Of a stretch of 64,000 bases of DNA, positions 632 through 60,576 are shown piece after piece. The stretch comes from Mucilaginibacter sp. (GTDB taxonomy: Bacteria; Bacteroidota; Bacteroidia; Sphingobacteriales; Sphingobacteriaceae). Under the pieces are notes generated by a model. It ran no database searches and was not told the DNA's origin. It was given only the letters and a program-made list of their open reading frames with translations. The position numbers and the translations under genes are program-made. Position 1 is the stretch's first letter, and every line of letters begins with the position of its first letter. The stretch covers positions 24,904 through 88,903 of the forward strand of contig DATHKT010000020.1 in the NCBI GenBank assembly GCA_035489035.1, read 5' to 3'.

Positions 632-3600
632 TTACCTCGTAATAATAATCTTCTTCTTATAAGCCTTCTGCCCCAATTGTATCTTTAAAACATACGTTCC
701 CGGCGCCAGGTGGTCGACATCAAGCAATGTGCTGAAGTTTCCGGCAGGTAATGCTTGTGCTGCTGAATAGCTTGTTTGCCCGGCGCTGTTTATTAATGAT
801 ATATTTAATGCTGTAGCTGTTTTAGCGGCAAAAACAACATTTAGCTGGTCGTTGGCCGGTACGGGGAACACGGCCAGGCCTATATCATTATCACCGGGAT
901 TAGCAGCCAGTATCACATATACAAAATTATCGGATTGGGAAACACAGCCATTTGCCAGGCCAATATCTACCCGGTAATTGCCGCTTTGCGCAGGCGAAAA
1001 GGTTTGCCCGGTTGCCCCGCTAATCACATTCCCGTTTAAATACCATTGATTACCTGTAGCAAAATTCGAACTTAAAACAGTGCCATTTTGTGTAATAACC
1101 GGTTTAACAAGCGTTACCGGCTGCTTTACTATCGATGCGCAACCGGGGCTTTTTAAATGGATATCGTATAAATAATAATAAAAATTCTTGTAATAAGCCG
1201 TATCACTCTCTGATGTAGCTGTATTCCCTGTGATACTGAACACATCACCTATTTTAAACGGGTAGCCACTTACGCCCCCATTGTTGCGATAAATAGTGGC
1301 GGTATTATCAAAGGAGGCGCTGATGGTGTAATTCCCGGCAGCGGGCAATTGTAAATTGAGGTTATAAACCTGTCCCTGGTCGGCCGGGTCATCGGCCTGC
1401 GCACCGGGTTGCGGGTTGGTACGGGTGGCAGTTGCATTAATGGTAGTGGTGGATACGATCTCGCCGCTATCATCTGATACGCTGAAAGTGATCTTACCCG
1501 GATTGCCAATATATAACCTGGCACTTTCAATAATTACAGGTATGCGGGTAAACACATTGATGGCCGGTGTAAACTGGTTATAACCACCGGCGTTGAATAA
1601 ATTCTTTGTTGCCGGGCCAACCGATCCGCTAAAATCATTAAGCCCTGCAAAGTAGGTATTATTTACAGGCGCCTGGGTAGTAGTTGCAGCGGAGCCATAG
1701 GCGATAGGGATAACATCTGTACTGTTCTGATACCAAAGCAATTCCCCATCACCTGTACCGGTTAACAAATAGGAATTGGTGCTGTTACAATAATTGGCAG
1801 CAAGGTCGGTCGCCGCAGGCGGATTACTAACTACAACTGTTTTCGTTACCTGGTTATTACCGGGTATGGGGTCTCCGGCCAGGCTTGTGGATGCCGCTAT
1901 GGTATAAGTTGCCCCGGCAGTAATATTAAAAGTAGCGGTAAAGGTAAAATCTTCGGTTGCTGATGGCGCAAGCGTACCGGTGTAAACCTGGTTGAATGTA
2001 GTCACCGTGTTATCGGCGGCAGTGATGGTCACATTTACAGGTATATTGCTGATGGTCGCGCCTCCGAAATTTTTAAGGGTTACGGTAACGGGGGTTGCCC
2101 CCGAGCAGTTGCCACCTTCTGCAGGATTGACAATAGCGATCACCCCTGCATCAATACTTGTTTGTGTAAATTGCACCCGGTAATCCTGTGTTTCGCCTTT
2201 AGCGTAAGTTCCGCAGGCATTAATGGTTGAAGCATCTGTTGTCTCAACCAATACCACGCGCATCAAACTAAAATTGCCCGGTATAACGGATGGCGGAACG
2301 GTTATATTGGTGGTATAAGTGCCCGTAGTGCTTATCGTCCCGGTAGTGGCTACCAGTTCATCCGTTCCAAAAGCTCCATCGCCATTCCAGTCAATAAACA
2401 CCTTGGCTATTTTATTAAAATTGGCTCCGCAGGTGCCCAATGTCAGGCTTAAAGGATAAGTTTTGCTTTGCTCCAGTTGCACTGTCAGGTTGGTATAATC
2501 CGAATAAGTGGTACAACCAGCAGCAGGTGTATTATTTAAATTCGACAGGGTAACATTATTAACGCGCGAGTCGGCGCTGGATAGCGGGCTCGATGCGCAA
2601 TAAGTTGTACCGCCAATGCCGGTCACAATAATTGAATATGCCTGCGGGCCTTGTTTCAATATACCCTTATGCGAAACGGTGATAGTATATGCTTTACCCG
2701 GAGTGGCATTGGCTATATAAACCTGTTCCACATTATCCCGGATATTATCTCCTTTTGTAGCGGCAGCACCTGGATTAGCCGGGTCCAATACCCATGGGGT
2801 AAAGGTAGTGGTGCCATCACTGACCCTGATATCCAGGTCATTTACTAATTTGGGTGTGCGGCTATTGATCGTTCCATCGGTTGTTATGGTACCTTCGGGA
2901 TCGGTCCATGATATAGTTGCCACCAGGGCGCCGTTACCCGATGCCACTACATTATAGTTTTGTTGTTTCCCCTGTGCTAATGAAACTTCCCGTATCAGGC
3001 TTTTTACACTATTATCCGTAATTGCCTGGGCGGCTTTTTTCATATCCAGCAGGCCCCAGCCGTAAATATAATCCGGGCCAACGTTACCTGCATCAAACGC
3101 AGTATGACAGGCCAGCCCCTTCAGCGTTGCTGCCCGCATAAAGTTTCCTGCATTTTTTTCTGCATAATACTCCTGCAACAGGTATAATGAGCCTGTTATA
3201 TTAGGCGTTGCCTGTGAAGTACCCGAAAAGGTGATATAACTGGTAGGGCTGCTGCTGCCTGCAGATAACACATTCAATCCGTTGCCAACCAGGTCGGGCT
3301 TGATACGGCCGTCATCAGTAGGCCCCCAGCTGCTGAAAAAGGTAGTAGCGATGCTTTGTGAATTGGTCGGCCCATTGGGCAGCGGGTTTATAGCGCCTAT
3401 GGTTAATATGTTTTTAGCATTAGCAGTAGAGCTGATACAGTCGTAACTGTTATTGCTGCTTATGCCGGCCGGCCTCGGGCCTTTATTAATAAAGGTTTGA
3501 TCGCTGGCGCTTCTGTAACCATAGTAGGTTTCACCAACAGCGGGCCCGGTGCTGCCCCTGCTATTGCCCGCCGCTTCTACAATCAGGTAATACGGCGCGT

Positions 3601-4366
3601 TAAAGGCTATCTTGTCCCATGCCTGGGCCCTGTCTGAATAAAACCCAAAAGTATAATCAACCGTATCGCCCGGTATTCCAAACCATTCCCAGTGATTGTT
3701 CCCTTCATTGAAATTCCAGCCTGCTTCATCGCCATAAGAGTGATTTGAAAGCAGCAGGTTTGAAGCAGCCGCGCTCATTTCGGCCACATCATTATTAAAA
3801 TCATAGGATAATAAGGTGCCCGCGTTAAAAGCCATCCCTTTTGCAGGAGCATACACCCCTTTTGCAAGCAAGGTGCCGCTTACGTGCGTAGCATGGTCAA
3901 TTACGAAAGAAGTATCTTTCAGTGTGATGGTTTTCCCGGCAAACTCCTGGTGGGCCTTATAAACCCAGCCCCCATCCCATATAGCCAGCTTATTATTTAA
4001 AAATGTACTTGATCCGGATAGATTTAATCCTAATGAACCACCCGGCTGTACAGTAACTGTATTAGTGGTAGCGGCAGATGTTGTGTTGTTATCAGTAATG
4101 AGGTATACCGGGAACCCCAGTTTGTTGATACCCTGCAAGGATATGATCCCACCGTTCTTAGTTTTTCTGCTGATCAGCCATCCCCGGCTTTTAGCCAGTG
4201 CCAGTGCCTGTTGCCTTCCCTTAATATATAAGTCATTTGATTTGGCCGACAGAGCATCCAGCTCCTTCTTATTAGCGGCAGATGCAGGCACTTGCTGACC
4301 AAATGCACCTACGCCAAAAAACAACAATAAAAATCCTGTAAGTAATGCCGCGTAGTGTTTTCTCAT
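632..4366 (-). CDS. T9SS-secreted S8 (subtilisin-like) serine peptidase with GEVED and Ig-like domains and a type A C-terminal sorting domain
   Basis: Signal peptide; catalytic motifs IWDGG, DHATHVSGT and SGTSQAT; oxyanion-region AAGN; GEVED-like segment (VFIDWNGDG...GETQDY); CTD VFPVPA...LAPGTYVLKI...KKIII. Confidence 0.9.
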   Translation of the reverse strand: MRKHYAALLTGFLLLFFGVGAFGQQVPASAANKKELDALSAKSNDLYIKGRQQALALAKSRGWLISRKTKNGGIISLQGINKLGFPVYLITDNNTTSAATTNTVTVQPGGSLGLNLSGSSTFLNNKLAIWDGGWVYKAHQEFAGKTITLKDTSFVIDHATHVSGTLLAKGVYAPAKGMAFNAGTLLSYDFNNDVAEMSAAASNLLLSNHSYGDEAGWNFNEGNNHWEWFGIPGDTVDYTFGFYSDRAQAWDKIAFNAPYYLIVEAAGNSRGSTGPAVGETYYGYRSASDQTFINKGPRPAGISSNNSYDCISSTANAKNILTIGAINPLPNGPTNSQSIATTFFSSWGPTDDGRIKPDLVGNGLNVLSAGSSSPTSYITFSGTSQATPNITGSLYLLQEYYAEKNAGNFMRAATLKGLACHTAFDAGNVGPDYIYGWGLLDMKKAAQAITDNSVKSLIREVSLAQGKQQNYNVVASGNGALVATISWTDPEGTITTDGTINSRTPKLVNDLDIRVSDGTTTFTPWVLDPANPGAAATKGDNIRDNVEQVYIANATPGKAYTITVSHKGILKQGPQAYSIIVTGIGGTTYCASSPLSSADSRVNNVTLSNLNNTPAAGCTTYSDYTNLTVQLEQSKTYPLSLTLGTCGANFNKIAKVFIDWNGDGAFGTDELVATTGTISTTGTYTTNITVPPSVIPGNFSLMRVVLVETTDASTINACGTYAKGETQDYRVQFTQTSIDAGVIAIVNPAEGGNCSGATPVTVTLKNFGGATISNIPVNVTITAADNTVTTFNQVYTGTLAPSATEDFTFTATFNITAGATYTIAASTSLAGDPIPGNNQVTKTVVVSNPPAATDLAANYCNSTNSYLLTGTGDGELLWYQNSTDVIPIAYGSAATTTQAPVNNTYFAGLNDFSGSVGPATKNLFNAGGYNQFTPAINVFTRIPVIIESARLYIGNPGKITFSVSDDSGEIVSTTTINATATRTNPQPGAQADDPADQGQVYNLNLQLPAAGNYTISASFDNTATIYRNNGGVSGYPFKIGDVFSITGNTATSESDTAYYKNFYYYLYDIHLKSPGCASIVKQPVTLVKPVITQNGTVLSSNFATGNQWYLNGNVISGATGQTFSPAQSGNYRVDIGLANGCVSQSDNFVYVILAANPGDNDIGLAVFPVPANDQLNVVFAAKTATALNISLINSAGQTSYSAAQALPAGNFSTLLDVDHLAPGTYVLKIQLGQKAYKKKIIITR

Positions 4367-55089: not shown

Positions 55090-56145
55090 CTATTGTTTTT
55101 GCAAATAGCCAAAAAGACCATGTGATTCATCATTGGGGCCTGCAGTAAAAAACAAGGGATCATTAGGGTTTCCGCCTGGGGCGTTATTTTTCAGGAAATC
55201 AATGGCCCATAATCCTTCAATAACTAAAGGTTGTCCATTACTTTCCAATTGACCTTTAAATTTTCCACCCATATCAAAAACATTGATCCGGCCATCGCCA
55301 AAATTACCAATAAGGACTGATTCTGCATTGCCTGCAAATCCGGCTGGGGCAAGGGCTATACCCCATGGTGAATTAAGGGTGCCCTGGGAAGCAAAACGTT
55401 TTACCAAAACACCTTTGGGAGTAAAAATATCAACATATCCATTGCCCGGGCCCGCTTCGTCGTCCTCATTATCAGGCCCTTTTAGTTTTGCATAGGTAAC
55501 ATACAACTGACCGCCAATATTTTGAATATTAAATGGAGCAAAACCAGCAGGAATGCCAGGATCAAGAAAGGGCTTATCTGTAACGTAACCAAAATTAGCA
55601 TCGAAGACATCAATTTTGCCCCCTTTAAAATTGGCCAGGTAAAGAAGATTTGCCGATCCGTCTGTAGCCATTGCAATGCCTTTATATACCGCATTTGACG
55701 AGGACCTGTCTGCAACCTTAACCGCCGAATTACCTGAAGCCCATGCGGTAATTATTCCATCCTCCCCAGCAAAAATGAATTTATTTCCTCCAAAATCCGT
55801 GGTGCTGTTAAAAATGATCCCGGTAGGTGCACCTGCCGCACCAGGTGTGGTGGAAGGAATGGTAACGGGCGGCCTTATTGTGCTGCCTGTTTTATCATAA
55901 ATCGTACTGAGGGCTGTATGATTGGCCGATATCCATATTATCCCGGTTGGCGAAGCGGCAATACCCCAGGCATTGACTAAGGCGGTGTCAATCTTTGCAG
56001 CTCCGTACCCGGCAGTATCAGCAACGAGATTTGTTTGACTAACATTAAACTCTTCGGTAGGTTTGTGGTCTTTCTTACATGCATAAAAACAGGTGATCAT
56101 TAAAAGCGCTGCAAGCAAAACTTTAGAAGTAATTAAATTTTTCAT
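55090..56145 (-). CDS. TIGR03118-family beta-propeller lipoprotein
   Basis: Lipobox FYA-C; QTNLVAD, LVNAWGIA, PTGIIFN, FAPFNIQ, LNSPWGIA, GNFGDGRINVFD, LFFTAGPNDESHGLFG. Confidence 0.85.
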   Translation of the reverse strand: MKNLITSKVLLAALLMITCFYACKKDHKPTEEFNVSQTNLVADTAGYGAAKIDTALVNAWGIAASPTGIIWISANHTALSTIYDKTGSTIRPPVTIPSTTPGAAGAPTGIIFNSTTDFGGNKFIFAGEDGIITAWASGNSAVKVADRSSSNAVYKGIAMATDGSANLLYLANFKGGKIDVFDANFGYVTDKPFLDPGIPAGFAPFNIQNIGGQLYVTYAKLKGPDNEDDEAGPGNGYVDIFTPKGVLVKRFASQGTLNSPWGIALAPAGFAGNAESVLIGNFGDGRINVFDMGGKFKGQLESNGQPLVIEGLWAIDFLKNNAPGGNPNDPLFFTAGPNDESHGLFGYLQKQ

Positions 56146-56412: not shown

Positions 56413-57243
56413 TCAGGCACTCTGGTTAACAGTCTGCTGCTTTACATCTATCCTTAACTGGTGAGTATTAAATACATTGGAGTATGGACTCACACTTTTG
56501 GTTAAAAATACACTCCCGCCGATAATGCTGTCGTGTCCGATAACCGTATATCCGCCCAAAATAGTGCTGCGGGCGTAAATAATTACATTATCCTCAACCG
56601 TAGGGTGCCGCTTGGTAGCTGATAGGTTCTTATTCACCTGCGATGCGCCCAGTGTTACCCCCTGGTAAATACATACATTTTTGCCGATGATGCTGGTAGC
56701 GCCGATAACAATGCCGGTACCATGATCTATGGTGAACGGAACACCAATAGTGGCATTAGGGTGGATATCAACCCCGGTTTTGCCGTGGGCGTGCTCGCTC
56801 AAAATACGTGGCAAAATGGGAATTTGCAATTGCGACAACCGGTTTGCTATGCGATAAACGGCAATGGCGTAAAAGCCGGGATATGACACGATCACTTCGT
56901 GGATGCTGGTTGCGGCAGGATCATTCTCGTGTATCTTACTGGCGTCCTGCCGCAAATTTTCATAAATAACATCCAGCGATTCATAAAATTCATTAACCGT
57001 ATTTTCTATGTCGACCGTATTTGGGTCGAGATAACTCAGCAACAGGTTTTCAAGGTCGATCTGGTTCTTCTTCAGCCGGCCTATGTAAGTTGACAGCTTA
57101 TTCAAATGATTATCCGGGAACAGGAATTCGATCAGGTCGCTCAGCCACAATACCGCCTGCTGATTGGAAGGTGTGGCCTCCCATTCAGCTTTGTGCGTTT
57201 TATGCAGCAGATCAATAAATTCCTGTATCCTCCCGTTGCTCAT
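56413..57243 (-). CDS. cysE: Serine O-acetyltransferase (CysE/EpsC type)
   Basis: DPAA, YPGFYAIAVYRIA, TGVDIHP.ATIG...IDHGTGIVIG, YQGVTLGA, KRHPT hexapeptide fold. Confidence 0.9.
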   Translation of the reverse strand: MSNGRIQEFIDLLHKTHKAEWEATPSNQQAVLWLSDLIEFLFPDNHLNKLSTYIGRLKKNQIDLENLLLSYLDPNTVDIENTVNEFYESLDVIYENLRQDASKIHENDPAATSIHEVIVSYPGFYAIAVYRIANRLSQLQIPILPRILSEHAHGKTGVDIHPNATIGVPFTIDHGTGIVIGATSIIGKNVCIYQGVTLGASQVNKNLSATKRHPTVEDNVIIYARSTILGGYTVIGHDSIIGGSVFLTKSVSPYSNVFNTHQLRIDVKQQTVNQSA

Positions 57244-57248
57244 TCTTA

Positions 57249-59672
57249 TTAATTTTTATGCCCGCCTTTTAAGCGGTGTAAAGTGAGTACCATGGTATCG
57301 ATATCGGCACAGGTATTATAAAAAGCCAATGATGGCCTTACAGTAGTTTCCTGTCCAAACCTTCGCAAAATAGGCTGCGCACAATGATGGCCTGAACGTA
57401 CCGCTATACCTTCCTGGTTTAACGCCGCGCCAACTTCTTCGGTATGGAAACCATCCAGCACAAAAGATAGCACACTGGCCTTGTCAGGCGCGGTACCAAT
57501 CAAATGCAATCCCGGCACCTGTTCCAGCAACCCGGTGGCGTATACCAACAGGTAATGCTCATATTGTGATATCAGATCGATGCCAATTTTGGTGACATAA
57601 TCTATAGCTGCGCCCAAGCCTACCGCGTCTGCTATATTGCCTGTACCGGCTTCAAAGCGTAGCGGGGCGTTATGATATTGGGTATATTCAAAAGTTACAT
57701 CTTTGATCATATTACCCCCACCCTGCCATGGCTGCGTTTCGTTCAACAGGTCTTCTTTGCCATATAGCACGCCAATACCTGTCGGACCGAAAATTTTATG
57801 TCCGGAGAAGACAAACCAATCGGCATCCAGCGCACGTACATCTACCCGCATATGCGAAACAGATTGCGCGCCATCTACCAATACCTTTGCCCCGGCCTGG
57901 TGTGCCATGTCAATAATTTGCCTGGCTGGCGTGATGGTGCCTAAAGCATTTGATACCTGTGAAAATGAGACCAGCTTAGTTTTCGGTCCTAATAATTTGG
58001 AATATTCGCTCAATATCACCTGTCCATCATCATCAACAGGGATCACTTTGATCTTGAGCCCTTTTTTAGCCGCCAGCTGCTGCCAGGGAACTATATTGGC
58101 ATGATGCTCCAGGTGGCTCAGTATGATCTCATCACCGGCATTTAAATATTGTTCGCCCCAACTTTTGGCCACCAAGTTGATGGCTTCGGTTGCCCCGCGC
58201 ACAAATATGATCTCGTTGAACGAGCCTGCGTTTAAAAATGCCTGCACCTTTTTCCTGGCATCTTCATAAGCATCGGTCGCCCGTGCAGCCAATTCGTGCG
58301 CTGCACGATGGATGTTGGAATTCTCATGCTCATAAAAATAACTGATCCGGTCGATCACCTGCCTCGGTTTTTGGGTGGTCGCCGCGTTATCCAGCCAGAT
58401 CAAAGGCTTACCGTTCACCCTTTCCTGCAGTATCGGGAAATCCAGTTTAATGCGGTTGACATCGAATGCTTGACCATTATTATCCTTAAACTCCTTTTGA
58501 ACCAAATCGGAGGCTTCCGGGGTAGACCTGAAATTGCTCTTCTCATTCAAAAAATAAAATCCCGACCCGGATGGGGGCGTAAAAGGTAATTGCTGACCCG
58601 GAAAGGTGGTGGTAATATTTTTTAATACACTTAACAATTCCGTATCAAAAGGTTGCTCCGATTGATAAGGTAATGTTTGCAGTGATGAAGGCAACGCGTA
58701 ATTATTACCGGTGTGTAAAGGCGTTTTTCCGTCAAAGCCGGGGAAGAAATTAATATTCTCCAGGTAAGAGGAAAAACCTTTAAAATCCGTTGAATAGGGT
58801 GATGCCGGGGCCGCAGTACTGGTGGTGTTTTGAGTTTGTGCAGGTTTGCTTCCGCCGCTGGTATTATGCGGATCGGGAAAGCTGGTTTGCGGGTTTTTCA
58901 GGTCGACCGCGTTTTTCTGATCGATAGCTGAAGGCGATATCCCGCTCCCGGCAACTGATTGGGGTACATTACCCAACCCGGTGCTGTTTGATCCGGGTAA
59001 ATTGGGCTGCGAACCATTGATATCCACTGCTTTGCCTTTATCACTGGCCGATGGCGATATACCGCTGCCTGCTACGGACTGAGGGATATTACCCAAACCC
59101 TGGTTGTTAGGATCAGGCAGACTTGTTTGCGGATTTTTTAGGTCGACAGCGTTTCCTTGTTCAGCAGCTGAAGGCGATATGCCACTGCCCGCTACCGACA
59201 CCGGAATTTTACTGGAACCTAAATGATTGAATTCAGGCAAGCCCAGTTTCGGATCACGCAGGTCTATTGCACTGGAATAGTTAGTTAACGATGGTGAAAC
59301 ACCAAGCCCACCCATTGATGGTGGAACTTTACCCATGCCTATGGATTCAGGCGATAGTAAAACAGCCTGTTCGTACGGCAAACCAACGCCGCTCAAATTA
59401 TTGGCATAGGACGGTGATATCCCGCTGCCCGCAACGGATGAAGGGATATTACCCAAGCCCAAAGCATTTACACCGGGCAACTCATGGGGCGCCTTGTCGA
59501 AATTAAAGCTGCTGTAATGCGGCAATGACTCCGGGCTCTGCGGTTGCTGGCCAAACTGCCGGGCACTTAAATCTATAGGCGGATCTCCCGGAAGCAATGA
59601 AAAAAACTGGTTGGCCAGTTTCTCCAATGCACCCAGATCAGGCAAGCCGCCGGGGAAATCATTTGTACTCAT
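57249..59672 (-). CDS. Family 2A encapsulin cargo cysteine desulfurase (SufS class) with a long disordered, repeat-containing N-terminus
   Basis: C-terminal ~400 aa: WLDNAATTQKP, PLP lysine FSGHK, catalytic RSGHHCA. N-terminal ~400 aa is Pro/Ser/Gly-rich with LEKLANQFFS and FYFL motifs. Confidence 0.93.
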   Translation of the reverse strand: MSTNDFPGGLPDLGALEKLANQFFSLLPGDPPIDLSARQFGQQPQSPESLPHYSSFNFDKAPHELPGVNALGLGNIPSSVAGSGISPSYANNLSGVGLPYEQAVLLSPESIGMGKVPPSMGGLGVSPSLTNYSSAIDLRDPKLGLPEFNHLGSSKIPVSVAGSGISPSAAEQGNAVDLKNPQTSLPDPNNQGLGNIPQSVAGSGISPSASDKGKAVDINGSQPNLPGSNSTGLGNVPQSVAGSGISPSAIDQKNAVDLKNPQTSFPDPHNTSGGSKPAQTQNTTSTAAPASPYSTDFKGFSSYLENINFFPGFDGKTPLHTGNNYALPSSLQTLPYQSEQPFDTELLSVLKNITTTFPGQQLPFTPPSGSGFYFLNEKSNFRSTPEASDLVQKEFKDNNGQAFDVNRIKLDFPILQERVNGKPLIWLDNAATTQKPRQVIDRISYFYEHENSNIHRAAHELAARATDAYEDARKKVQAFLNAGSFNEIIFVRGATEAINLVAKSWGEQYLNAGDEIILSHLEHHANIVPWQQLAAKKGLKIKVIPVDDDGQVILSEYSKLLGPKTKLVSFSQVSNALGTITPARQIIDMAHQAGAKVLVDGAQSVSHMRVDVRALDADWFVFSGHKIFGPTGIGVLYGKEDLLNETQPWQGGGNMIKDVTFEYTQYHNAPLRFEAGTGNIADAVGLGAAIDYVTKIGIDLISQYEHYLLVYATGLLEQVPGLHLIGTAPDKASVLSFVLDGFHTEEVGAALNQEGIAVRSGHHCAQPILRRFGQETTVRPSLAFYNTCADIDTMVLTLHRLKGGHKN
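58860..59470 (-). repeat. Five in-frame 120-bp (40-aa) tandem repeats inside the desulfurase N-terminus
   Basis: Equivalent positions at 58930, 59050, 59170, 59290 and 59410; consensus (G)LGN(I/V)PxSVAGSGISPS. Confidence 0.9.
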
Positions 59673-60576
59673 AATAATTTCCTATTTCTACATCTTCCAA
59701 TACAGCAATAGCATCATCAACCAAAACGGCCAGCGAGCAATACAGCGAAACCAAATATGAAGCAATCGCTTTATTATTGATGCCCATAAAGCGCACAGAT
59801 AACCCGGGGGTTTGTTCACCCGGTAATCCCGGCTGGAAAAGACCAACCACACCCTGGCGGCTTTCGCCTGTGCGGATCAATAAAATTTTGGTTTTACCGC
59901 CCACGATCGGCACTTTATCCGATGGGATCAGTGGGATACCGCGCCAGGTTAAAAACTGGGAACCAAACAGGGAAACTGTTGGCGGTGGTACGCCCCTACG
60001 GGTACATTCGCGACCAAAAGCGGCTATTGCTAACGGATGAAGCAGGAAAAATCCCGGCTCTTTCCAAACTTTAGTGATCAGGTCGTCCAGGTCGTCAGGA
60101 GTTGGTGAACCGTTACGCGCTTTTATATGCTGCGATGGTGCGATGCTGTTTAACAGTCCATACTCTTTGTTATTGATCAGCTCACTTTCCTGTCTTTCCT
60201 TTACAATTTCAATCGTAAGGCGCAATTGTTCGCTGATCTGGTTATAAGGCTTGCTGTACAGGTCGGATACACGGGTATGCACATCCAGTACCGTATTTAC
60301 CGCGCTCAGGTTATACTCGCGCGGATTTTCTATATAATCCACAAAGGTTGAGGGCAGTGTTTTTTCATCGCGTGATGAGCAATCCACTTCTACATTCTCT
60401 TCATTTTTTACCTTGTTCAGGCGATATACACCTGATTCTACAGGTATCCAGCTCATTAAATGAGTGAGCCACCGTGGGCTAATAATGTCTAACTGCGGTA
60501 CGGTACGTGTGGCGATTGCCAGCTGCCTCGCGGCTACATCGCCAAGAGCTGTTTGTTTGGGTTTCTGTTCGGCCAT
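59659..60576 (-). CDS. Family 2A encapsulin shell protein (SrpI-like)
   Basis: ALGDVAARQLA..T.TVPQL..ISPRWL, VHTRVSDLYS.PYNQI.EQLRL, PTPDDLDDL, FLTWRG.PLIPSDK; 305 aa with no cNMP insertion; overlaps the desulfurase start by 14 bp. Confidence 0.93.
   Translation of the reverse strand: MAEQKPKQTALGDVAARQLAIATRTVPQLDIISPRWLTHLMSWIPVESGVYRLNKVKNEENVEVDCSSRDEKTLPSTFVDYIENPREYNLSAVNTVLDVHTRVSDLYSKPYNQISEQLRLTIEIVKERQESELINNKEYGLLNSIAPSQHIKARNGSPTPDDLDDLITKVWKEPGFFLLHPLAIAAFGRECTRRGVPPPTVSLFGSQFLTWRGIPLIPSDKVPIVGGKTKILLIRTGESRQGVVGLFQPGLPGEQTPGLSVRFMGINNKAIASYLVSLYCSLAVLVDDAIAVLEDVEIGNYYEYK

What the first reader, a model, noticed from the sequence alone, without database searches (positions are those of the whole stretch)
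58860..59470. Encapsulin cargo desulfurase with five exact-period 40-aa repeats in its targeting region
Seen: a ~400-aa disordered N-terminus containing five units at precisely 120-bp spacing (core GLGN(I/V)PxSVAGSGISPS, then AVDLKNPQTS(L/F)PD in two units). They lie between the LEKLANQFFS motif and the FYFL motif. Synonymous sites have diverged, so the period is maintained at protein level. Established: family 2A desulfurases are loaded through a disordered N-terminal domain with short conserved motifs. Inference: an expanded multivalent shell-binding, spacer or condensate-forming module. I do not know of this regular repeat being described.
Basis: partly seen in the sequence, partly recalled or inferred. 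Interest (0 to 1): 0.62.

Follow-up and report, generated by a model that had tools for sequence, protein, structure and literature searches.

The report
Repeated 40-residue module in encapsulin cargo tail
The enzyme that this soil bacterium packs into a sulfur-storing protein shell carries, in its floppy "address" tail, five old copies of a 40-residue module spaced exactly 40 residues apart. The module occurs in 1 to 6 copies across Bacteroidota, so it is a natural series for testing how the number of docking motifs controls cargo loading, not a new kind of system.

Summary
ORF 57249..59672(-) encodes an 807-aa Family 2A encapsulin cargo cysteine desulfurase. It overlaps the shell gene (59659..60576) by 14 nt and is followed by cysE.

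Residues 72-271 (window 58860..59459) are five 40-aa units in exact register. There are 78/180 identities at lag 40, against 25.8±2.1 in shuffles. Third codon positions are randomised (0.30 identity), so the repeat is old and is kept at protein level. AlphaFold2 predicts no fold for this region (pLDDT about 30).

The unit is not private to this genome. It is a module of the cargo-loading domain (CLD), consensus GxGx(I/V)PxSVAGSGISPSA…(N/D)PQTSLPDP(H/N)F. It was found only in desulfurase cargo N-termini, always beside a 2A shell gene. All named hits are Bacteroidota apart from one probably mis-binned contig. Copy number is 1-6. Anchor spacing is exactly 40 in 68% of adjacent pairs.

Units group by position across species. 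The window's Mucilaginibacter subclade has 3-6 detectable units and its sister subclade has 1. The unit is not detectable in the characterised A. baumannii or S. elongatus CLDs.

Most likely function, inferred and not shown: a multivalent, spacing-constrained shell-binding thread. No paper in the searchable library describes such a repeat for Family 2A. Repeated motifs are already known in Family 2B CLDs. Verdict: new variant of a known kind, moderate interest.

The parts
59659..60576 (-). Family 2A encapsulin shell gene (305 aa)
   Evidence: PF19307 SrpI-like E 5.8e-107. NF041162 scores 533 bits against a cut-off of 380. It is 73% identical to the A. baumannii shell and 72% to S. elongatus SrpI.
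57249..59672 (-). Cargo cysteine desulfurase (807 aa); the start codon overlaps the shell gene's last codons by 14 nt
   Evidence: NF041166 scores 890 bits against a cut-off of 800. Aminotran_5 covers aa 425-793, E 7e-145. The overlap sequence was read directly.
58473..59672 (-). Disordered N-terminal cargo-loading domain, aa 1-400
   Evidence: AF2 pLDDT <50 for aa 35-393. Composition is S 14%, P 11.5%, G 10.8%, with no Cys. No Pfam family matches here.
59598..59627 (-). Motif LEKLANQFFS (aa 16-25), the counterpart of LARLANEFFS in S. elongatus CyD
   Evidence: Position. It falls in the predicted helix 13-25, pLDDT 72-78. The motif is described in PMC8049743.
59340..59459 (-). Unit 1 (aa 72-111): GLGNIPSSVAGSGISPSYANNLSGVGLPYEQAVLLSPESI
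   Evidence: It clusters with the first units of other species in the unit tree.
59220..59339 (-). Unit 2 (aa 112-151): GMGKVPPSMGGLGVSPSLTNYSSAIDLRDPKLGLPEFNHL
   Evidence: It falls in the position-specific u2 clade.
59100..59219 (-). Unit 3 (aa 152-191): GSSKIPVSVAGSGISPSAAEQGNAVDLKNPQTSLPDPNNQ
   Evidence: It scores 70 bits against the iterated phylum-wide unit profile.
58980..59099 (-). Unit 4 (aa 192-231): GLGNIPQSVAGSGISPSASDKGKAVDINGSQPNLPGSNST
   Evidence: It falls in the '…PNLPGSNST' u4 clade shared with P0011-P0023.
58860..58979 (-). Unit 5 (aa 232-271): GLGNVPQSVAGSGISPSAIDQKNAVDLKNPQTSFPDPHNT
   Evidence: It is the best match to the unit profile at 79 bits. It falls in the last-unit '…QTSFPDP' clade.
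58614..58640 (-). Conserved segment ELLSVLKNI (aa 345-353), overlapping the predicted short helix 342-351
   Evidence: AF2 helix 342-351, block pLDDT 68. It is conserved as 'EQPFExxLxxxLxxI' in the alignment of 102 homologues. Acinetobacter CLDs carry a counterpart, 'LKSLL'.
58548..58559 (-). FYFL motif (aa 372-375), the counterpart of AASPYYFLDG
   Evidence: Y373 and F374 are invariant in 102 homologues. Position. The motif is described in PMC8049743.
57294..58400 (-). SufS-type PLP-dependent desulfurase domain (aa 425-793)
   Evidence: Pfam PF00266. Best PDB relative is 8kg1, E 1.7e-181. AF2 pLDDT is mostly above 80.
56413..57243 (-). Serine O-acetyltransferase (cysE/epsC-like), starting 5 nt after the desulfurase stop; operon partner
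   Evidence: TIGR01172 E 8e-44 and NF041874 E 7.5e-41, both below the curated cut-offs. An equivalent ORF lies downstream in 27 of 81 related loci, many of which are cut short.

Best explanation
The five units are a tandem array of a bipartite short-linear-motif module inside the intrinsically disordered cargo-loading domain (CLD) of a Family 2A encapsulin cysteine desulfurase. Each unit holds two conserved half-motifs, (I/V)PxSVAGSG(I/V)SPS and (N/D)PQTSLPDP(H/N)(F), joined by about 10 variable residues.

I propose that the units act as redundant, cooperative docking sites for the mostly non-polar patches on the luminal face of the T=1 shell. Consecutive units would engage neighbouring shell sites like beads on a thread. 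That would explain why the spacing between units is held at 40 residues even though the chain is disordered.

More units would give higher avidity and use more shell sites per enzyme dimer. Copy number (1 to 6 in nature) would then tune how tightly, and in what number, the desulfurase is loaded.

Shown here: the identity of the system, the array, its age, its conservation, its restriction to this cargo, and its predicted disorder. Inferred: shell binding, and the link between valency and loading.
For: System identity:
- NF041166 scores 890 bits against a cut-off of 800.
- NF041162 scores 533 bits against a cut-off of 380.
- PF19307 and PF00266 both match.
- The two genes overlap.

The array is real and old.

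Constraint on the units:
- Across orthologues the unit region is the best-conserved part of the CLD after the LANQFF motif. dN is 0.27-0.29 for the units, 0.60-0.84 for the preceding linker and 0.41-0.53 for the following region.
- P6, S8, G11, G13, S15, P16 and S17 are invariant or nearly so in 44 diverse units.
- Units cluster by position across species, so each unit has kept its own identity.

Spacing:
- 258/380 adjacent anchor pairs are exactly 40 apart and 338/380 are 39-41 apart. In the window's clade 94/102 are exactly 40.
- In that same clade the other CLD segments vary in length, with sd 12.8 and 6.2 residues.

Exclusivity:
- A unit profile run against 1.84 billion representative proteins hit only 60. 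Nearly all are N-terminal pieces that open with the LANxFF-type motif typical of desulfurase cargo, and the rest are short fragments cut before that motif.
- In the window's own genome the only five hits are these units.
- 77 of the 79 loci found with the unit carry a 2A shell ORF upstream on the same strand as the desulfurase.
- In the genus, the 8 genomes with a shell are exactly the 8 with the unit.

No autonomous fold: pLDDT is about 30 with essentially no secondary structure.

Published experiments:
- Family 2A CLDs bind the shell discontiguously at nonpolar patches near the 3-fold pores and A-domains. The authors liken this to CsoS2 (PMC10836720).
- In M. smegmatis single motifs are insufficient, but either half of the disordered region alone loads cargo (PMC11659603).
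- In Family 2B, repeated CLD motifs bind redundantly (PMC11550324, PMC13739066).
Against: - No binding was tested, and no shell-peptide complex could be modelled with these tools.
- The shell is 72-73% identical to those of A. baumannii and S. elongatus. Yet the unit is undetectable in their CLDs, both by HMM at E≤100 and by profile-profile comparison (probability 0.06%). The conserved shell patches can therefore be served without this unit. The shared LANxFF and FYFL motifs may be the real anchors.
- Natural systems with a single unit, or a degenerate one, exist. Many units are therefore not needed for a working system.
- The spacing statistics count related sequences, not independent events.
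Confidence: 0.55

Rival explanations
1. The array is a tether or spacer. The units do not bind the shell. They set the length and volume of the disordered tether between the true anchors (LANQFF helix, FYFL region), and so fix the radial position and number of enzyme dimers and the free lumen left for sulfur.
For: - CLD length varies from about 160 to about 440 residues, mainly through unit number.
- The unit is absent from the characterised CLDs although the shells are 72-73% identical.
- The array is predicted to be fully disordered.
Against: - A pure spacer needs neither nearly invariant residues nor position-specific unit identities.
- A pure spacer would not have a dN half that of neighbouring linkers.
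- A pure spacer would not keep an exact 40-residue register.
Confidence: 0.17
2. The array mediates cargo-cargo or condensate scaffolding. The units act as stickers that cluster desulfurase dimers before or during shell assembly, as scaffold proteins do in carboxysomes.
For: It is a multivalent repeat in a disordered region. The CsoS2 analogy is drawn by Benisch et al..
Against: - The array has only 5 aromatic residues, 9 K+R and 13 D+E in 200 residues. That is unlike typical sticker-rich phase-separating sequences.
- AF2 predicts no docking of the disordered N-terminal region onto the folded domain, although this is weak evidence.
- No experiment addresses this.
Confidence: 0.08
3. The units recruit a third partner into or onto the compartment. 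Candidates are a sulfur acceptor, the operon's serine acetyltransferase, or a disassembly or release factor.
For: A cysE-like gene is conserved downstream. The unit is specific to one phylum, as a lineage-specific partner would require.
Against: - No candidate partner co-varies with the unit in the loci examined.
- The acetyltransferase is found in only 27 of the 81 loci examined (79 unit-bearing loci plus the two model loci), partly because of truncation.
- No other protein in the genome carries the unit.
Confidence: 0.08
4. The expansion is neutral. Unit duplication in a tolerant disordered region has no effect on function.
For: - Recent, nearly identical extra copies exist in relatives (P0001 units 4 and 5 differ at 1 of 40 residues).
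- Copy number varies freely between close relatives.
- Other lineages show unrelated CLD duplications.
Against: Synonymous sites between the window's units are saturated, yet the protein motif, the register and the position-specific identities persist. That indicates long-term purifying selection on each unit.
Confidence: 0.07

Closest known systems
Family 2A encapsulin desulfurase systems with a disordered N-terminal cargo-loading domain: S. elongatus SrpI/CyD (Nichols 2021, PMC8049743), A. baumannii Enc/CD (Benisch 2024, PMC10836720), M. smegmatis Mmp1/Enc-CD (Tang 2024, PMC11659603)
   Same: - Same shell family (72-73% identity).
- Same SufS-type cargo.
- Same operon logic, with cysE.
- Same N-terminal LxxLANxFF helix and FYFL motif.
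- The same Pro/Gly/Ser-rich disordered CLD.
   Different: - Those CLDs are 155-225 residues long with scattered single motifs. This one is about 400 residues.
- Between the shared motifs it holds five copies of a 40-aa module that cannot be detected in the A. baumannii or S. elongatus CLDs.
Family 2B terpene-cyclase cargo CLDs and CLPs with repeated motifs: 2-MIBS GPxGLGT (Andreas & Giessen 2024, PMC11550324); GeoA repeating CLPs (PMC13739066)
   Same: - Disordered loading regions in which a short consensus motif recurs.
- Binding is redundant and cooperative.
- Long CLDs carry 'multiple repeats' of the motif.
   Different: - Different shell subfamily (with the CBD insertion) and different cargo.
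- The repeated element there is a motif of about 7-11 residues with no reported fixed period.
- Here the element is a 40-residue bipartite unit in strict register.
- Any sequence relationship ('GLG') is unproven.
CsoS2, the repeat-containing disordered scaffold of alpha-carboxysomes (cited by Benisch 2024 as an analogy; Ni et al. 2023)
   Same: An intrinsically disordered chain in which repeated short motifs, spaced by linkers, contact the inner face of an icosahedral protein shell at several points.
   Different: - Unrelated sequence and unrelated shell fold.
- CsoS2 is a stand-alone scaffold needed for assembly. Here the repeat is part of the cargo enzyme itself, and shells of this family assemble without cargo.

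Membership tests
Family 2A encapsulin cargo cysteine desulfurase (NCBIfam NF041166) | Whole-protein score above the curated cut-off of the family model | tested here: met
   890.3 bits against a cut-off of 800. The best stretch is aa 264-801 on model positions 90-623.
Family 2A encapsulin cargo cysteine desulfurase (NCBIfam NF041166) | C-terminal SufS-type class-V PLP enzyme domain | tested here: met
   PF00266 E 7e-145. TIGR01979 scores 550 bits against 475. PDB SufS relatives match at E down to 1.7e-181.
Family 2A encapsulin cargo cysteine desulfurase (NCBIfam NF041166) | Encoded next to a Family 2A shell gene | tested here: met
   The shell gene 59659..60576 overlaps the cargo start by 14 nt.
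Family 2A encapsulin cargo cysteine desulfurase (NCBIfam NF041166) | Disordered N-terminal domain with the LxxLANxFF and (F/Y)YFL motifs | tested here: met
   LEKLANQFFS at aa 16-25 and FYFL at aa 372-375. pLDDT <50 over aa 35-393. The motifs are as described in PMC8049743.
Family 2A encapsulin cargo cysteine desulfurase (NCBIfam NF041166) | The N-terminal domain is necessary and sufficient for encapsulation | not testable with these tools
   This needs co-expression or in vitro loading. It has been shown only for the S. elongatus and M. smegmatis homologues.
Family 2A encapsulin shell (NF041162 / PF19307) | HK97-fold SrpI-like shell protein without the cNMP-binding-fold insertion of Family 2B | tested here: met
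   NF041162 scores 533 bits against 380 over model positions 1-295 in one stretch. The protein is 305 aa. The 2B model matches only its HK97 part.
Family 2B-type repeated CLD motif (GPxGLGT / GPxGxGTxxL) | Presence of that consensus motif in the repeat | tested here: inconclusive
   Three of five units begin GLGN. Across the phylum only GxG is conserved at that place, and no Pro precedes it. No Family 2B CLD set was compared.
CsoS2-like shell-threading scaffold (functional class, not a sequence family) | Repeated motifs of a disordered chain contact the shell interior | not testable with these tools
   The repeats and the disorder are shown. Contact with the shell is not.
Any curated repeat or domain family (Pfam-A) | A profile match within aa 1-400 | tested here: not met
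   There is no Pfam-A hit at E≤0.01 outside the aminotransferase domain.

The most novel reading that the evidence does not exclude
Each 40-residue unit is a bipartite 'ruler' that occupies one shell protomer. One half-motif sits on the A-domain patch near the five-fold axis and the other on the P-domain patch near the three-fold pore. The array then threads from protomer to protomer, so five units would be roughly one pentamer. Its natural copy number (1-6) would set cargo-to-shell stoichiometry and the lumen left for sulfur. That would make it the first encapsulin cargo with a CsoS2-like molecular thread of tunable valency.
Probability: 0.18. Interest if true: 0.7.

Novelty: new variant of a known kind. 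Interest (0 to 1): 0.42.

Why it matters
How the long disordered loading domains of Family 2 encapsulins recognise the shell is still unresolved. In every published structure the cryo-EM density for them is too weak to assign sequence.

This Bacteroidota module is a sharply conserved, easily synthesised 40-residue candidate binding unit. Nature has already made a dosage series of it, with 1, 2-3 and 5-6 copies among close relatives and nearly identical shells.

That series makes two questions directly testable in standard laboratory hosts. The first is whether valency and spacing of CLD motifs set avidity, cargo number and sulfur-storage capacity. The second is practical: the module could serve as a modular, tunable tag for loading foreign proteins into Family 2A shells.

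It does not change the picture of what the compartment does.

Tried and rejected
- Tandem Repeats Finder on the DNA found no array. The repeat is visible only at protein level.
- The unit HMM, both the window-only version and the one iterated over 120 homologues, gave no hit in the A. baumannii or S. elongatus CLDs even at E≤100 or in 18 Acinetobacter CLDs.
- hhalign of a circularly permuted unit alignment against an Acinetobacter CLD alignment gave probability 0.06%. I therefore rejected the idea that the unit is an expanded copy of one of the 'five conserved motifs' of the A. baumannii CLD.
- The profile search of the 50%-identity representative library returned only 60 hits, mostly fragments. 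It is good for showing exclusivity. It is poor for counting, because full-length desulfurases collapse into clusters through their catalytic domain.
- An even phylum sample of 400 genomes held too few 2A systems (4) to give a distribution.
- dN/dS could not be computed because dS is saturated in every available orthologue pair. Only relative dN is reported.
- AF2 on the full-length protein gave no structure for the array. I rejected a folded-repeat explanation for the exact period.
- Cluster names gave almost no extra taxonomy.
- The supplement of PMC10836720 (fig. S6A, the five motifs) and the review PMC10225969 are not held. The five published motifs could not be compared letter by letter.
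- O-glycosylation sequons were considered and dropped, because the protein has no signal peptide and is cytoplasmic cargo.
- No shell-peptide complex could be modelled, because only single chains encoded in the window can be folded here.
Full report
**1. What is at the site.**

The finding lies in ORF 57249..59672 on the minus strand, which encodes 807 aa.
- Its C-terminal half is a SufS-type class-V PLP enzyme. PF00266 covers aa 425-793 at E 7e-145, TIGR01979 scores 550 bits, and PDB SufS relatives match at E down to 1.7e-181.
- The whole protein passes NCBIfam's model for 'family 2A encapsulin nanocompartment cargo protein cysteine desulfurase'. NF041166 scores 890 bits against a cut-off of 800.
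- The gene upstream, 59659..60576(-), is a Family 2A shell. PF19307 matches at E 6e-107 and NF041162 scores 533 bits against 380. The cargo ATG lies inside the shell's last codons, a 14-nt overlap.
- A cysE/epsC-like serine acetyltransferase follows 5 nt after the cargo stop.
- By nearest relatives the organism is a Mucilaginibacter.

**2. The observation.**

Five 40-aa units start at aa 72, 112, 152, 192 and 232 (window 59459 to 58860), exactly as reported.
- They lie between LEKLANQFFS (aa 16-25) and FYFL (aa 372-375).
- In aa 61-280 there are 78 identities out of 180 at lag 40. The best lag of 2000 shuffles gave 25.8±2.1, with a maximum of 36. Lags 40, 80 and 120 top the list.
- Units share 13-29 of 40 residues but only 55-81 of 120 bases.
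- Identity by codon position is 0.62, 0.72 and 0.30, and Tandem Repeats Finder reports nothing. The duplications are therefore old and the repeat is held at protein level.
- AlphaFold2, run with a 102-sequence alignment, gives pLDDT below 50 for aa 35-393 and about 30 through most of the array. Confident helices appear only at aa 13-25 and 342-351.
- The region is S/G/P/N-rich, weakly charged, poor in aromatics and free of cysteine.

**3. The unit is a family-wide module.**

An HMM built from the five units finds 1 to 6 copies in all 120 listed homologues of the N-terminal domain. The homologues range from 467 to 832 aa.

The consensus over diverse units is GxGx(I/V)PxSVAGSGISPSA-x(7-10)-(N/D)PQTSLPDP(H/N)F. 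S8 is invariant, and G1, G3, P6, G11, G13, S15, P16 and S17 are nearly so.

A scan of one genome per species (185,579 species) for S[VA]AGSG[IV]SPS returned 79 loci.
- The loci come from Sphingobacteriales, Chitinophagales, Cytophagales and a few Flavobacteriales.
- One contig is labelled Beijerinckiaceae. Its genes nest inside Chitinophagaceae, so it is probably mis-binned.
- 77 of the 79 loci have a 2A shell ORF upstream on the same strand as the desulfurase. These shells are 80-93% identical to the window's over full-length matches.

Within the genus, the 8 of 25 genomes that have a shell are exactly the 8 that have the unit.

One class-level relative has a 2A system whose unit is only a degenerate remnant.

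A unit profile run against 1.84 billion representative proteins hit only 60. Nearly all are N-terminal pieces that open with the LANxFF-type motif of this cargo, and the rest are short fragments cut before it. In the window's own genome the only hits are the five units. The module is therefore exclusive to the cargo-loading domain of this enzyme.

**4. History and constraint.**
- In a tree of 127 units from the window's clade, units group by position, not by species (u1, u2, u3, u4 '…PNLPGSNST', last '…QTSFPDP'). The array predates these species, and each unit has kept its own character.
- Some relatives replaced u4 by recent u3-type copies and reached six units.
- On a tree of the catalytic domain, Mucilaginibacter forms one clade that splits into two well-supported subclades. 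One has a single unit. The other, which holds the window, has 3-6 detectable units. Most other Bacteroidota have 1-3 full units plus a partial one.
- Synonymous sites are saturated between all available orthologues, so dN/dS cannot be given.
- dN can be compared. It is 0.27-0.29 in the units, 0.19-0.22 in the LANQFF segment, 0.60-0.84 in the preceding linker, 0.41-0.53 in the following region and 0.07-0.09 in the enzyme.
- The distance between equivalent anchor residues of adjacent units is exactly 40 in 258 of 380 pairs and 39-41 in 338. In the window's clade it is 40 in 94 of 102.
- In that same clade the segments before and after the array vary with sd 12.8 and 6.2 residues.
- These counts include related sequences and are not independent events. 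Even so, the contrast inside one protein region is clear.

**5. Relation to the characterised systems.**

I retrieved the S. elongatus PCC 7942 CyD from plasmid pANL, and an A. baumannii CD from a PLSDB record.
- Their shells are 72-73% identical to the window's.
- Neither CLD matches the unit HMM, even at E≤100.
- Eighteen diverse Acinetobacter CLDs give nothing significant either.
- A profile-profile comparison is at chance level.
- The shared elements are the N-terminal LxxLANxFF helix, an 'LxxLL' segment and the (F/Y)YFL motif. The unit array sits where those CLDs have unrelated Pro-rich sequence.

**6. Literature.**
- Benisch et al. describe 'five relatively short motifs' and discontiguous CLD density on nonpolar patches at the 3-fold pores and A-domains. 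They draw an explicit analogy to CsoS2.
- Tang et al. show in M. smegmatis that single motifs do not load cargo, whereas either half of the disordered region does.
- None of these papers mentions a periodic repeat. Searches of the library for such a description found none.
- For Family 2B cargo, however, long CLDs 'containing multiple repeats' of GPxGLGT and 'repeating' loading peptides are reported.
- Earlier notes of this scan record other lineage-specific duplications in 2A CLDs.
- I saw two more such duplications myself. One is the duplicated ERSL(E/A)QL(T/A)Q(T/A)VLQD segment in S. elongatus CyD. The other is a module of about 110 aa duplicated in one Acinetobacter protein.
- Repetition in these domains is therefore a known theme. 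This particular module, its strict period and its natural copy-number series are not described.

**7. Mechanism.**

The best-supported reading is that each unit is a bipartite linear-motif module that docks on the luminal shell surface. The array would then give cooperative, redundant binding, with the 40-residue register reflecting the spacing of successive binding sites.

Evidence for this reading:
- The module is exclusive to the loading domain.
- It is conserved more strongly than the neighbouring linkers.
- Each position in the array has kept its own identity across species.
- The register is fixed even though the chain is disordered.
- Published experiments show multi-site, redundant CLD binding.

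Evidence against it:
- There is no direct binding evidence.
- Nearly identical shell surfaces are served by CLDs that lack the unit.
- One-unit systems exist.

Four rivals are listed with their tests: a tether or spacer role, condensate formation, recruitment of a third partner, and neutral expansion. I put the main explanation at 0.55.

**8. Verdict.**

The system is an ordinary Family 2A desulfurase encapsulin that databases already label. Its loading domain carries an undescribed, phylum-specific 40-residue module, here in five ancient copies. That makes it a new variant of a known kind. It is of moderate interest, mainly as a ready-made experimental handle on how CLD valency and spacing govern cargo loading.

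Noticed in passing
L002:3160-5040 (S. elongatus PCC 7942 pANL, cyd): The model CyD N-terminal domain has an internal duplication of its helix-type motif. ERSLEQLTQTVLQDLQ and ERSLAQLAQAVLQDPQ lie about 63-72 residues apart, so the LARLANEFFS-type element occurs twice there.
   Followed up: partly
P0261 (765-aa Acinetobacter-type cargo desulfurase): One Acinetobacter-lineage CLD carries a duplication of about 110 residues covering its whole middle module (…PQPADPxxALGGRxPA…SLPxVGGANxP…SP(F/Y)YxL…). This is an independent case of CLD module duplication.
   Followed up: no
L030 (contig CAJCIQ010000144.1, labelled Beijerinckiaceae): An encapsulin operon with the Bacteroidota unit sits on a contig assigned to an alphaproteobacterial MAG. 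Its desulfurase nests with Puia dinghuensis (Chitinophagaceae) at 100/97 support. This is probably mis-binning, less likely transfer.
   Followed up: partly
L031 (Larkinella humicola MA1), about 2720-3660: The 2A shell gene appears split into two ORFs, matching 224 and 139 residues of the query shell. That suggests a frameshift or a sequencing error.
   Followed up: no
G065, G436 and 43 other genomes of one family (f38, genera g83/g86) in the phylum sample; loci L104-L111: A single Bacteroidota family with small (2-3 Mb) genomes almost always carries shell genes of about 490 aa. These match the 2A model in two pieces (positions 3-48 and 49-295) around an insertion, so they are Family 2B-like shells. 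Some genomes have two or more such shell genes. Their cargo was not examined.
   Followed up: no
L001 / NZ_CP077849.1: A 3.66-Mb A. baumannii record is filed in the plasmid collection as 'plasmid pDETAB15' with only 45 annotated features. It looks like a chromosome-sized record and carries the encapsulin operon unannotated.
   Followed up: no
window 55090-56145 (-): Downstream of cysE, after a 267-nt gap on the same strand, lies a lipoprotein-like TIGR03118 family protein (E 1.4e-95) of unknown function. No link to the encapsulin operon was established.
   Followed up: no
window 59659-60576 (shell) against the plasmid collection: The shell protein shows 25-27% identity (E about 1e-6) to major capsid proteins of phage-plasmids in Escherichia, Enterobacter, Salmonella and Yersinia. 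This is the known HK97 kinship of encapsulins.
   Followed up: no
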